Assembly (NCBI RefSeq): GCF_003334385.1
Contig: NZ_QOWN01000001.1
DNA from: Escherichia coli
GTDB lineage: Bacteria; Pseudomonadota; Gammaproteobacteria; Enterobacterales; Enterobacteriaceae
Direction: 5' to 3' (one strand)
DNA length: 64,000 nt
A program made the position numbers. This document shows, in pieces, positions 6,001 through 9,000 of the stretch (its first letter is position 1; each line of letters begins with the position of its first letter).

Positions 6001-9000
6001 TCTGGTAATGGTTTCTTCAGGCGTGCCTCGGTACTGTGCAGCGCTCGCCAGGCATCTTTTAGCTGTGCGAACCGAAAGCTAATTGCCGTATCAAACAAGC
6101 GCTGCACCAGACGCTGACGTTTCAGGATAAGGTGATAATTCAGCGGGGGTTGATTCATCAGGAGCTGTTGTTGCGTTGCCCGCGGATTGTCTGCGGCAAG
6201 TGGTGTCACCGGATATTTTCCTGTATCGGCATCGGCCAGAATACGCTGTCCTTTCGGACTTAACAGGTAGTGAATAAAGCGACGGGCTGCATCGGCGTGT
6301 GGGCTTTTCCTGAGAATTGCAACGTAGGTGGGGGATACCGCAGACCGGGGGAAATAGGTAAAAGAGATATGGGGGTCATTTAACAGTAAATTAGCATAGT
6401 TATCGATAACGGGGCCGGCAACGCCGAGTCCGCTTTTTATTTTATCGGCTACGCCAAAACTGCGGGAGGAGATTGTCACCAGGTTTCCTGCACTTGTCAG
6501 CAACGTTTCCCATCCTTTCACCCAGCCTTTTTGCTGTAGTAATGACTCAACCATTAAATGGTTAGTATCTGAACGCGACGGACTACTCATCAATAAAGCG
6601 TCCTGATAGATCGGCAAAGCAAGATCGTCCCAGTCAGCAGGGGCAGGAAGGTGTTTTACAGAAAGCGCAGGACGATTAATAAGCAGACCAAAACCTGATA
6701 TTGCTACTGCAACGGAGGTTGCACGGATCGACTCCGGCACCAGGTTTTGGCTTTCTGCGGGTGCATCATCAAACGGGGCCAGTTTCTGGTGCTCCTGAAG
6801 GTGCTGGAGCAGCATTGGTGATGAAGTCAGGATCAGATCGACGTTTTCTACGTTGGCCGTATCAAGCAACTGTTCCAGTGAGGCACTGGTGCGGTTAAGC
6901 GTACGGATCATTACCGACTCAGGCTCTGTTTGCCAGCGCTGTATTATCCACGTGATAGCTCCGGGTGAGAATGTGGTGGCCATCACCAGTTCATTTCGTT
7001 GAGCCCTGACGGCCCCGACATCCATCAACAACAGTAAAAGAATCATGGTTTTGATGCCGATTTCGCACCAACTAAAGAATCGGTTTGTGATCCAGGTCAT
7101 AAATATTAATACACCGCAAAAATCGCATTGAGACAAAAATTACCCGTTTCAGACACTTCGTCTGATAACACGTCTGTTCAAAGAGACCGTTAATATATTA
7201 ATCAGAGATTACCCGATAATCAGCATGAGATTTGTTAATATCCGCACATGCTAACAACAAACCAGATAAAGCATAAATCTGCCCTGTCTATGCATCAATA
7301 AAATGGGTCAAAAACAGGCTTTGATTTTATTATTTTGTGTCAATTGTGACACATTTTTTCAGTTTGATATTTCATCTCAATTATATAACTCTCATTGTCA
7401 GAATACTCCTGATGTTCATATCAATATAAAATACAGGTGAAGACATGTTATCAATATTTAAAACGGGGCAAGCGGCGGATAGTGTTCCGGCGGAGAAAAT
7501 TCAGGTGACATATCGTCGCTATCGTATGCAGGCGTTACTTAGCGTATTTCTGGGGTATCTTGCATACTATATCGTGCGTAATAATTTCACCTTATCAACG
7601 CCTTATCTTAAAGAGCAATTAGATCTCAGCGCCACACAAATTGGCGTACTGAGTAGCTGTATGCTTATCGCCTATGGTATCAGCAAAGGAGTGATGAGTA
7701 GCCTTGCCGATAAAGCCAGTCCGAAAGTCTTTATGGCGTGTGGGCTGGTGTTATGTGCCATCGTTAACGTTGGCCTGGGATTCAGCACCGCATTCTGGAT
7801 TTTTGCGGCATTGGTTATTCTGAATGGTCTTTTCCAGGGAATGGGCGTTGGTCCTTCTTTCATCACTATTGCTAACTGGTTCCCTCGCCGGGAGCGTGGT
7901 CGGGTTGGTGCTTTCTGGAATATCTCTCATAACATCGGTGGTGGTATTGTTGCACCGATTGTTGGTGCCGCTTTTGCCCTACTCGGCAGCGAGCACTGGC
8001 AAAGTGCGAGTTATATCGTTCCGGCCTGCGTGGCCATCGTTTTTGCGGTAATTGTGCTGATTCTCGGTAAAGGTTCCCCACATCAGGAAGGTCTACCCTC
8101 TCTGGAAGAGATGATGCCGGAAGAAAAAGTCGTCCTGAATACCCGACAGACGGTAAAAGCACCAGAAAACATGAGCGCCTTTCAGATTTTCTGCACTTAT
8201 GTATTACGCAATAAAAATGCCTGGTATGTCTCACTGGTTGACGTATTTGTATACATGGTGCGCTTCGGGATGATTAGCTGGTTGCCTATTTATCTGCTGA
8301 CGGTGAAACATTTTTCAAAAGAACAAATGAGCGTCGCATTTTTATTTTTTGAATGGGCCGCGATCCCTTCCACGCTACTTGCCGGTTGGTTGTCAGACAA
8401 ACTGTTTAAAGGGCGTCGTATGCCATTGGCGATGATTTGTATGGCGCTGATTTTCATTTGCCTGATTGGCTACTGGAAAAGTGAATCGTTGTTTATGGTG
8501 ACAATTTTTGCTGCCATTGTTGGTTGTCTGATTTACGTTCCACAATTTCTGGCTTCCGTTCAGACTATGGAGATCGTGCCCAGCTTTGCTGTTGGCTCCG
8601 CGGTAGGTTTACGTGGTTTTATGAGCTATATCTTCGGTGCATCTCTGGGCACCAGCCTGTTTGGTATTATGGTCGATCATATTGGCTGGCATGGCGGATT
8701 TTATCTTCTTGGCTGCGGTATTATTTGTTGCATCATTTTTTGCTGGTTATCACATCGTGGTGCAATTGAACTTGAACGTCACAGAGCCGCATATATAAAA
8801 GAGCACTAATTACCTTCCCCAGGGTCGTTTCCCTGGGGAGTGGAGCATATTATGATTTATAAGATATCTGGCAATCAGAGATTAATATGGAAATTTTATA
8901 AAACTGATGACAATAAATGGAGATGGTATTGTCATGAGAAAAATGGATATCTTTTGTCTCAATCAGATAACGCATATAATTCGCAATTGTTATGCATTGA

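What the first reader, a model, noticed from the sequence alone, without database searches (positions are those of the whole stretch)
8815..8840. Two island hairpins share identical CCCCAGGG / CCCTGGGG arms (8817..8838 and 25002..25022)
The stem-loop after pgtP (CCCCAGGGTCGTTTCCCTGGGG) and the one downstream of the hypothetical gene near the integrase (CCCCAGGGTAATCACCTGGGG) have the same GC-rich arms with different loops. This may be coincidence, or copies of a small repeated palindromic element.
Basis: seen in the sequence. Interest (0 to 1): 0.2.

Follow-up and report, generated by a model that had tools for sequence, protein, structure and literature searches.

The report
Coincidentally similar gene-end RNA hairpins
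Two short GC-rich stem-loops in an E. coli selC pathogenicity island really do share their arm sequence, but each is an ordinary gene-end hairpin inherited with its own gene, and the likeness is what chance gives among a genome's many hairpins.

Summary
H1 (8816-8839, + strand) starts 6 nt after the pgtP stop. H2 (25002-25022) lies 66 nt after the stop of a minus-strand TPR gene. Both contain CCCCAGG...CCTGGGG. The repeat-family reading fails. A further 500 kb of the closest genome holds no other copy. Short-query BLAST against 5,426 E. coli genomes finds each hairpin only at its own locus. The extended motif, scanned in two public collections, appears only in these two contexts plus GC-rich chance hits. 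Neither site matches REP/BIME, ERIC or any Rfam family. Among 449 perfect hairpins in 564 kb, 1.2 per 1,000 pairs share a 7-nt stem word, so this window should hold about 1.4 such pairs; it holds five. Each hairpin evolves in place. H2 paralogues carry CCCCTGG/CCAGGGG. Other pgtP lineages carry different stems at the same spot, and Salmonella and Citrobacter pgtP have unrelated hairpins. H2 is a standard intrinsic terminator, a stem followed by UUAUUUUCU on the TPR sense strand. H1 has no U-tract in any of five lineages and abuts the ribosome-binding site of a small co-inherited ORF. It is probably an intercistronic stem-loop that stabilises the mRNA or couples translation. Ordinary; low interest.

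The parts
8816..8839 (+). H1: perfect 9-bp stem TCCCCAGGG/CCCTGGGGA with 6-nt loop TCGTTT. It sits between pgtP and a small ORF and has no U-tract.
   Evidence: -22.7 kcal/mol for the 81-nt context. The terminator scan did not call it. A stem is kept in five pgtP-island lineages.
7445..8809 (+). pgtP, phosphoglycerate transporter (454 aa). H1 belongs to the 3' end of its transcript.
   Evidence: RefSeq annotation of the near-identical UPEC132 locus. Homologues.
8842..8845 (+). GGAG ribosome-binding site of the small ORF, 2 nt after the H1 stem. In the minimum-energy fold its first two G pair with CC at 8813-8814.
   Evidence: Direct reading and the fold.
8852..9217 (+). Small orphan ORF (121 aa), always found downstream of the island-type pgtP.
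   Evidence: Annotation. It is 58% identical to the ORF of a diverged lineage. Only 16 protein clusters exist; the seven that carry a source name are all named E. coli. No Pfam or NCBIfam match.
25002..25022 (-). H2: 7-bp stem CCCCAGG/CCTGGGG with a 7-nt loop. It is the terminator hairpin of the TPR gene.
   Evidence: Called terminator-like on the minus strand. Kept in paralogous modules, with one compensatory A-U to U-A change.
24993..25001 (-). U-tract of H2 (UUAUUUUCU on the minus strand), immediately 3' of the stem.
   Evidence: The flank TTATTTTCTGAAAGTTTC is the best-conserved part of the H2 context in metagenome copies.
25089..26132 (-). Tetratricopeptide-repeat protein gene (347 aa) that H2 follows.
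23236..24738 (+). Phosphoethanolamine-transferase gene, broken in this window and convergent with the TPR gene. In some paralogues the intact gene ends about 57 nt before H2.

Best explanation
H1 and H2 are two unrelated RNA stem-loops. Each is part of the 3' end of a different transcription unit in an E. coli selC island. Their shared arm CCCCAGG/CCTGGGG is a coincidence, not common descent and not a repeat family. H2 works as a Rho-independent terminator of the minus-strand TPR gene: a 7-bp G+C stem is followed directly by UUAUUUUCU, and it sits between convergent genes. The structure and position are shown; termination itself is inferred. H1 is an intercistronic stem-loop 6 nt after the pgtP stop and 2 nt before the GGAG of a small co-inherited ORF. 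It lacks a U-tract in every lineage, so it is not a canonical terminator. Most likely it protects the pgtP message from 3' exonucleases, or lowers read-through, so that pgtP and the small ORF are expressed at different levels. Because the pgtP stop lies so close to the stem, a terminating ribosome would melt the stem and expose the G-rich 3' arm and GGAG. That would couple translation of the small ORF to that of pgtP. The anatomy and its conservation are shown; the mechanism is inferred.
For: Not a family: there are 0 further CCCCNGG-loop-CCNGGGG hairpins in 500 kb of UPEC132 outside the window. The 43-nt H1 and 47-nt H2 queries at E<=10 against 5,426 E. coli genomes gave matches at pgtP 3' ends (plus 19-nt tssK chance matches) for H1. 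For H2 they gave unannotated intergenic sites, taken to be the phosphoethanolamine-transferase/TPR spacer from the longer queries; only 30 rows of each search were listed. The extended motif CCTTCCCCAGG-N5-8-CCCTGGGG gave 27 pgtP-context copies, about 24 H2-context copies and 44 unrelated, mostly GC-rich contigs in metagenomes. In about 100,000 species genomes it gave 27 unrelated hits plus one E. coli-like contig. Chance is sufficient: 123 of 100,576 hairpin pairs share a 7-mer stem word, so 1.4 pairs are expected in the window, which holds 5. The 11+8 identical run lies within the range of unrelated pairs. Independent histories: H2 paralogues at 78% identity carry CCCCTGG/CCAGGGG. H1 lineages carry CCCCCAGGG/CCCTGGGGG, CCCCAGGGG/CCTCTGGGG, CCCCCGGAT/ATCCGGGGG and CCCCGGAT/ATCCGGGGG at the same spot, all folding at -18 to -32 kcal/mol. 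Salmonella and Citrobacter pgtP have unrelated hairpins. RNA sense: two H1 variants carry G.U pairs that are only possible on the + strand, and these fold 3-5 kcal/mol better in sense than in antisense. H2 is called terminator-like on the minus strand. H1 is not called.
Against: The covariation statistics are weak. There is one compensatory event per hairpin, and shuffles reach the observed score in 28/500 (H2) and 122/500 (H1) trials. Only about 11% of the genome was scanned for the loose motif, so a family of up to about 30 copies is not formally excluded. The 19-nt identity is at the top of the chance range, and both hairpins lie in the sense orientation of their genes within one island, where only about 0.26 sharing pairs are expected. 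They are also the only 2 of 449 hairpins with CCWGG in the stem. No transcript data were available, so termination and stabilisation are not shown.
Confidence: 0.85

Rival explanations
1. H1 and H2 are copies of a small repeated, possibly mobile, palindromic element of the REP/BIME or MITE type that has spread within the island or the genome.
For: The pattern is absent from shuffled sequence. The identity extends to 11+8 nt in the same sense orientation. Both sites lie in one horizontally acquired island.
Against: There are no other copies in 500 kb and no off-locus matches in 5,426 genomes. The extended motif occurs only in the two known contexts. The loops and flanks are unrelated. There is no GTAG/CGTC tag, no REP halves and no ERIC core (PMC3733652). 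Each site diverges in place to different stems. A systematic survey of E. coli stem-loop repeat families lists only PU-BIME, ERIC, BoxC and Eco-1 (PMC2267715).
Confidence: 0.03
2. The two hairpins are independent in origin but share a sequence-specific partner, such as an RNA-binding protein, an sRNA or a DNA-binding protein that recognises CCUUCCCCAGG...CCCUGGGG. On this reading the likeness is functional convergence.
For: The 11+8 nt identity lies in the sense orientation of both upstream genes. CCTTCCCC is invariant in the H2 copies examined.
Against: In the H1 lineage neither CCTT nor the arm sequence is conserved: it is TCTC in GPEC548 and CCCCCGGAT in L042. What is kept is pairing, not sequence. 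H2 paralogues change the central A-U to U-A. There is no Rfam match.
Confidence: 0.04
3. H1 is simply the pgtP transcription terminator, working without a U-tract or with Rho, and the small ORF is transcribed separately.
For: It is a strong stem (-22.7 kcal/mol) placed immediately after the stop codon. Salmonella and Citrobacter pgtP have a hairpin in a comparable position.
Against: No U-tract follows the stem in any of five lineages, and the terminator scan does not call it. Only 12 nt separate the stem from the start codon of the co-inherited ORF, which leaves no room for a promoter. The promoter scan found no site on the + strand upstream of 8852.
Confidence: 0.15

Closest known systems
Rho-independent (intrinsic) transcription terminators
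   Same: H2 has a G+C-rich stem, a 7-nt loop and a U-rich tract directly 3' of the stem. It lies downstream of a stop codon in sense orientation and between convergent genes. H1 has the stem and the position after a stop codon.
   Different: H1 has no U-tract in any lineage and is followed 2 nt later by a ribosome-binding site. H2's U-tract is interrupted (UUAUUUUCU).
Intercistronic mRNA-stabilising stem-loops in operons (from my own knowledge, the REP hairpins between malE and malF that block 3' exonucleases)
   Same: H1 is a stable hairpin between two co-oriented genes. It has no terminator tail, and it is conserved as a structure while its sequence drifts.
   Different: H1 is a single-copy, locus-specific hairpin and not a member of a dispersed family. 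Its effect on mRNA decay has not been measured.
REP / PU-BIME (GTAG-3) elements of enterobacteria
   Same: They are short, G+C-rich, extragenic, transcribed palindromes at gene ends.
   Different: REPs end in a GTAG tag, match a 35-40 nt consensus, occur in hundreds of copies and often cluster (PMC3733652, PMC2267715). H1 and H2 have no tag, no match to the consensus halves, no further copies and no clustering.
ERIC / IRU elements
   Same: From memory of the ERIC primer sequences, the ERIC core contains TCCCCAGG and CTGGGG, the same short words as the arms here.
   Different: ERIC is a 127-bp imperfect palindrome with about 20 copies in E. coli (PMC2267715). H1 and H2 are 21-24 nt, have unrelated flanks and put 6-7 nt rather than about 20 nt between the words. 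No ERIC core was found in 364 kb: the window plus the first 300 kb of the sample.

Membership tests
REP / PU-BIME | GTAG (or CGTC) tetranucleotide tag at one end of the palindrome (PMC3733652) | tested here: not met
   Direct reading of 8806-8848 and 24990-25036. No GTAG, CTAC, CGTC or GACG adjoins either stem.
REP / PU-BIME | Match to the REP consensus halves GCCGGATGCGGCG and CTTATCCGGCCTAC (consensus from memory) | tested here: not met
   REP halves were found elsewhere in the genome sample, for example L046 49632 and L047 11939. None lies at or near H1 or H2.
REP / PU-BIME | Tens to hundreds of dispersed copies per genome, often in clusters | tested here: not met
   0 further copies in 500 kb. 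BLAST of 5,426 genomes returns only the two home loci. The whole genome was not scanned.
ERIC / IRU | About 127-bp imperfect palindrome with a conserved core | tested here: not met
   The hairpins are 21-24 nt. No ERIC core with up to 4 mismatches was found in the window or in the first 300 kb of the genome sample (core sequence from memory of the ERIC1R/ERIC2 primers).
MITE-like mobile palindromes | Presence/absence polymorphism (empty sites) and copies in unrelated flanks | tested here: not met
   All ten island-type pgtP loci and all six H2 modules that were aligned carry a hairpin at the same position. The 27 + 24 metagenome copies sit in the same two contexts, though the scan required the motif and so cannot detect empty sites. 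Target-site duplications were not assessable.
Intrinsic terminator (H2) | G+C-rich stem of at least 5 bp, loop of 3-8 nt, U-rich tract within 2 nt of the stem, sense orientation downstream of a stop codon | tested here: met
   7 pairs, 6 G-C, loop 7, tail TTATTTTCTG on the minus strand. It lies 66 nt after the TPR stop.
Intrinsic terminator (H2) | Produces a transcript 3' end in vivo | not testable with these tools
   No transcript data were available.
Intrinsic terminator (H1) | U-rich tract immediately 3' of the stem | tested here: not met
   The tail is AGUGGAGCAUAUU. The scan does not call it. The U-tract is absent in all five lineages.
Rfam families (any) | Score at or above the family's gathering threshold | tested here: not met
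   One search found only tRNA-Sec and JUMPstart in the window. Searches gave as best hit STnc260, at 23 bits against a gathering score of 100.

The most novel reading that the evidence does not exclude
H1 and H2 could be the only two members of a tiny island-borne class of sense-oriented 3' stem-loops. On this reading the shared CCUUCCCCAGG...CCCUGGGG sequence, which also carries two Dcm CCWGG sites per hairpin, is read by a common island-encoded or host factor that links expression of the pgt genes to the integrase-proximal module.
Probability: 0.03. Interest if true: 0.35.

Novelty: already known. Interest (0 to 1): 0.05.

Why it matters
It matters little for biology. H2 is a textbook terminator. 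H1 is a locus-specific intercistronic hairpin of a kind that is well known. There are two useful by-products. The first is a calibration: in E. coli about 1.2 of every 1,000 pairs of perfect hairpins share a 7-nt stem word, so a 64-kb window is expected to hold one or more such pairs. Shared arms alone therefore should not be read as a repeat family. The second is a small observation: the island-type pgtP always carries a stable hairpin without a U-tract between its stop codon and a co-inherited orphan ORF. This could be tested as a translational-coupling or mRNA-stability device.

Tried and rejected
1. A Rfam gathering scan of the whole window and E-value scans around both sites found nothing relevant.
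2. A genome-contig scan for the 19-nt extended motif gave 28 hits, 27 of them in unrelated taxa. No Escherichia or Salmonella genome was hit, although E. coli ATCC 11775 carries H1 (H61). That collection apparently lacks the strain, so this scan says nothing about E. coli itself.
3. I guessed by eye that the small ORF is YegP/DUF1508-like. Pfam and NCBIfam found nothing, so I rejected the guess.
4. I asked whether Dcm/very-short-patch-repair bias towards CCWGG makes such arms common. It does not: only 2 of 449 hairpins have CCWGG in the stem, and they are H1 and H2 themselves.
5. I considered a relation to ERIC through the shared words TCCCCAGG and CTGGGG, and rejected it on size, spacing and flanks.
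6. Formal covariation counts agree in direction, but there are too few events for them to be decisive.
7. Literature searches for the E. coli pgtP island and its terminator found nothing specific.

Full report
WHAT IS THERE. The window is an E. coli chromosome segment almost identical to UPEC132 and CFT073-type strains. It covers a selC (tRNA-Sec, 28032-28122) pathogenicity island with pgtABCP, a pap operon, tia, a phosphoethanolamine-transferase gene, a TPR-protein gene and a P4-type integrase. H1 is a perfect 9-bp stem TCCCCAGGG/CCCTGGGGA with a 6-nt loop (8816-8839). H2 is a 7-bp stem CCCCAGG/CCTGGGG with a 7-nt loop (25002-25022), and the eighth G of its left arm is unpaired. H1 begins 6 nt after the pgtP stop (8807-8809). 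It ends 2 nt before the GGAG (8842-8845) and 12 nt before the ATG (8852) of a 121-aa hypothetical ORF on the same strand. H2 lies 66 nt downstream of the stop of the minus-strand TPR gene (25089-26132). On that strand it is followed directly by UUAUUUUCU, and the consensus scan calls it terminator-like. H1 has no U-tract on either strand and is not called.

When each hairpin is read in the sense of its upstream gene (H1 on +, H2 on -), the identity is longer than the arms: CCTTCCCCAGG-loop-CCCTGGGG, which is 11 + 8 nt. This made the repeat hypothesis worth a serious test.

IS IT MORE THAN CHANCE? Against shuffled sequence it is: 0 matches in 100 shuffles. From k-mer counts only about 0.1 such hairpin is expected per genome. 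But hairpins are a selected class, so the fair null is other hairpins. I fetched 500 kb of UPEC132 in ten evenly spaced 50-kb pieces. With the window, these 564 kb hold 449 perfect hairpins (stem of at least 7, loop 3-9). Of 100,576 pairs, 123 pairs that are not identical whole hairpins share a 7-nt stem word, a rate of 1.2e-3 per pair. The window's 48 hairpins therefore predict about 1.4 such pairs. It actually holds five, for example GCGGCGGTA at 33976 and 36893, and GCCGGATG at 49227, 54013 and 54978. The 19-nt total identical run of H1/H2 is at the top of the range for unrelated pairs but inside it: 19, 18, 18, 18, 18, 17 (computed on 364 kb). If only the island part of the window is counted (21 hairpins), 0.26 pairs are expected. 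That is mildly unusual and no more.

IS THERE A FAMILY? There is no further CCCCAGG/CCTGGGG, CCCAGG/CCTGGG, CCCCTGG/CCAGGGG or CCCCNGG/CCNGGGG hairpin in the 500-kb sample. BLAST of 43 nt around H1 at E<=10 against 5,426 complete E. coli genomes returned pgtP 3' ends plus 19-nt matches inside tssK at E=7. The 47 nt around H2 returned only unannotated intergenic sites. From the longer queries these are the spacer between the phosphoethanolamine-transferase and TPR genes, with at most 3 places per genome. In both searches only 30 rows were listed. The extended motif CCTTCCCCAGG-N5-8-CCCTGGGG was scanned in about 100,000 species genomes. It gave 28 stretches. One (L030, labelled a Collinsella MAG) is the E. 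coli H2 region, and the rest are unrelated, mostly GC-rich taxa, roughly the number expected by chance. No Escherichia genome was hit although ATCC 11775 carries H1, so that collection evidently lacks it and says nothing about E. coli itself. The same motif in metagenomes gave 95 stretches: 27 in the pgtP context, about 24 in the H2 context and 44 unrelated. So the motif occurs in two contexts only. Neither hairpin carries the GTAG/CGTC tag that defines REPs (PMC3733652), and neither matches the REP halves, which do occur elsewhere in the sample. No ERIC core is present in the 364 kb searched. Rfam finds nothing. A published systematic survey of stem-loop repeat families in E. coli lists only PU-BIME, ERIC, BoxC and Eco-1 (PMC2267715).

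EACH HAIRPIN HAS ITS OWN HISTORY. H2 belongs to a phosphoethanolamine-transferase/TPR/integrase module that occurs at several tRNA islands, with up to 7 places per genome for the 1-kb query. In copies 86-88% identical the stem is unchanged and the loop differs. In copies 78% identical the stem is CCCCTGG/CCAGGGG, a compensatory A-U to U-A change, and 100% of cells are paired. The U-tract side (TTATTTTCTGAAAGTTTC) is the best-conserved flank, while the upstream flank varies. Where the transferase gene is intact and long, it ends about 57 nt before H2, so H2 sits between convergent genes. H1 belongs to the island-type pgtP (454 aa). Within E. coli the loop is free (TCGTTT, CCGTCT, CCATTT, ATGCCC). 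The outer pair changes from U-A to C-G in GPEC548. One variant has CCTTGGGG, which gives a G.U pair possible only in + strand RNA. More diverged lineages, with PgtP 91% and the small ORF 58-74% identical, have different stems at the same place: TTCCCCAGGGG-CCT-CCTCTGGGGAA, TTTCCCCCGGAT-ATC-ATCCGGGGGAAA and TTTCCCCGGAT-ATC-ATCCGGGGGAAA. All fold at -18 to -32 kcal/mol, and sense is favoured over antisense wherever G.U pairs occur. Salmonella and Citrobacter pgtP (463 aa, with a different C-terminus and different neighbours) carry unrelated hairpins. The identity with H2 therefore holds only for one sub-lineage of H1. That is what coincidence predicts and what common descent does not. The formal covariation statistics are weak, with one event per hairpin and shuffles reaching the observed score in 28/500 and 122/500 trials. 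I rely mainly on the persistence of a strong stem while its sequence is replaced.

HOW THEY MOST LIKELY WORK. H2 is an intrinsic terminator of the TPR gene; the anatomy is shown and termination is inferred. H1 is not a canonical terminator, because the U-tract is missing in all five lineages. It separates pgtP from a small orphan ORF that is always co-inherited with it. The 12 nt between the stem and the ATG leave no room for a promoter, and no + strand promoter-like site lies upstream of 8852. So the two genes are probably co-transcribed. The most likely role is a 3'-exonuclease barrier or partial transcription block that sets the ratio of pgtP to ORF expression. In addition, the pgtP stop is 6 nt from the stem, and the 3' arm plus the next bases are Shine-Dalgarno-like (GGGGAGUGGAG; in the minimum-energy fold the first GG of GGAG pairs with CC 8813-8814). 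A terminating ribosome would therefore open the stem and could couple ORF translation to pgtP translation. These mechanisms are inferences. I put about 0.85 on two unrelated gene-end hairpins with coincidental arms, about 0.8 on H2 being a working terminator, and about 0.45 on the stabiliser/coupling role of H1, against about 0.15 for H1 as a plain terminator.

VERDICT. Both hairpins are ordinary members of well-known kinds, and interest is low.

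Noticed in passing
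window 33976-34000 and 36893-36914; 49227-49250, 54013-54034, 54978-54999: Other hairpin pairs in the same window also share stem words: GCGGCGGTA in the first pair and GCCGGATG in the other three. The first pair lies in a BglG-family antiterminator/PTS gene cluster and could be antiterminator-controlled terminators.
   Followed up: partly
window 8852-9217 (+): This is a 121-aa orphan ORF with no Pfam or NCBIfam match. Only 16 protein clusters exist; the seven that carry a source name are all named E. coli. In the loci examined it lies directly after the island-type pgtP. It is 58% identical between lineages and contains a CxxC motif (CYGCGY).
   Followed up: partly
window 23236-24738 (+): The phosphoethanolamine-transferase gene is broken here into ORFs 23236-24285 and 24409-24738. 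It is intact in UPEC132 (500 aa) and longer (557 aa, ending near the equivalent of 24945) in paralogous modules.
   Followed up: partly
L008 and L053 (E. coli ECONIH2, EC17GD31), equivalent to window 8833: The H1 variant CCCTGGGG to CCTTGGGG is a C to T change at the Dcm-methylated cytosine of CCTGG, a known deamination hotspot. It leaves a G.U pair in the sense RNA.
   Followed up: no
window 8819-8823, 8832-8836, 25004-25008, 25016-25020: Each hairpin carries two Dcm/EcoRII sites (CCAGG and CCTGG). H1 and H2 are the only 2 of 449 perfect hairpins in 564 kb with CCWGG in the stem.
   Followed up: yes
window 56126-56164 (+): A JUMPstart RNA element (Rfam RF01707, 55 bits against a gathering score of 35), outside the selC island part of the window.
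   Followed up: no
L030 3099-3123: A contig labelled as a Collinsella sp. MAG carries the E. coli H2 region with 60/60 identical flanking bases. This looks like E. coli contamination of that genome bin.
   Followed up: no
L023 14673-14700 and L024 5245-5272 (Indibacter alkaliphilus): Two contigs end in the same perfect palindrome CCTTCCCCAGGGGTACCCCTGGGGAAGGG. This is probably a dispersed repeat that breaks that assembly and is unrelated to E. coli.
   Followed up: no
window 8792-8932 (-): A weak Rfam hit to the Salmonella sRNA STnc260 (23 bits against a gathering score of 100, E=0.2). I treated it as noise.
   Followed up: no
L158 37788-40812 (UPEC132 leuX island): A paralogous integrase-proximal module in which the transferase gene is a pseudogene and the TPR gene and H2 are missing. 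The module decays differently at different tRNA islands.
   Followed up: partly
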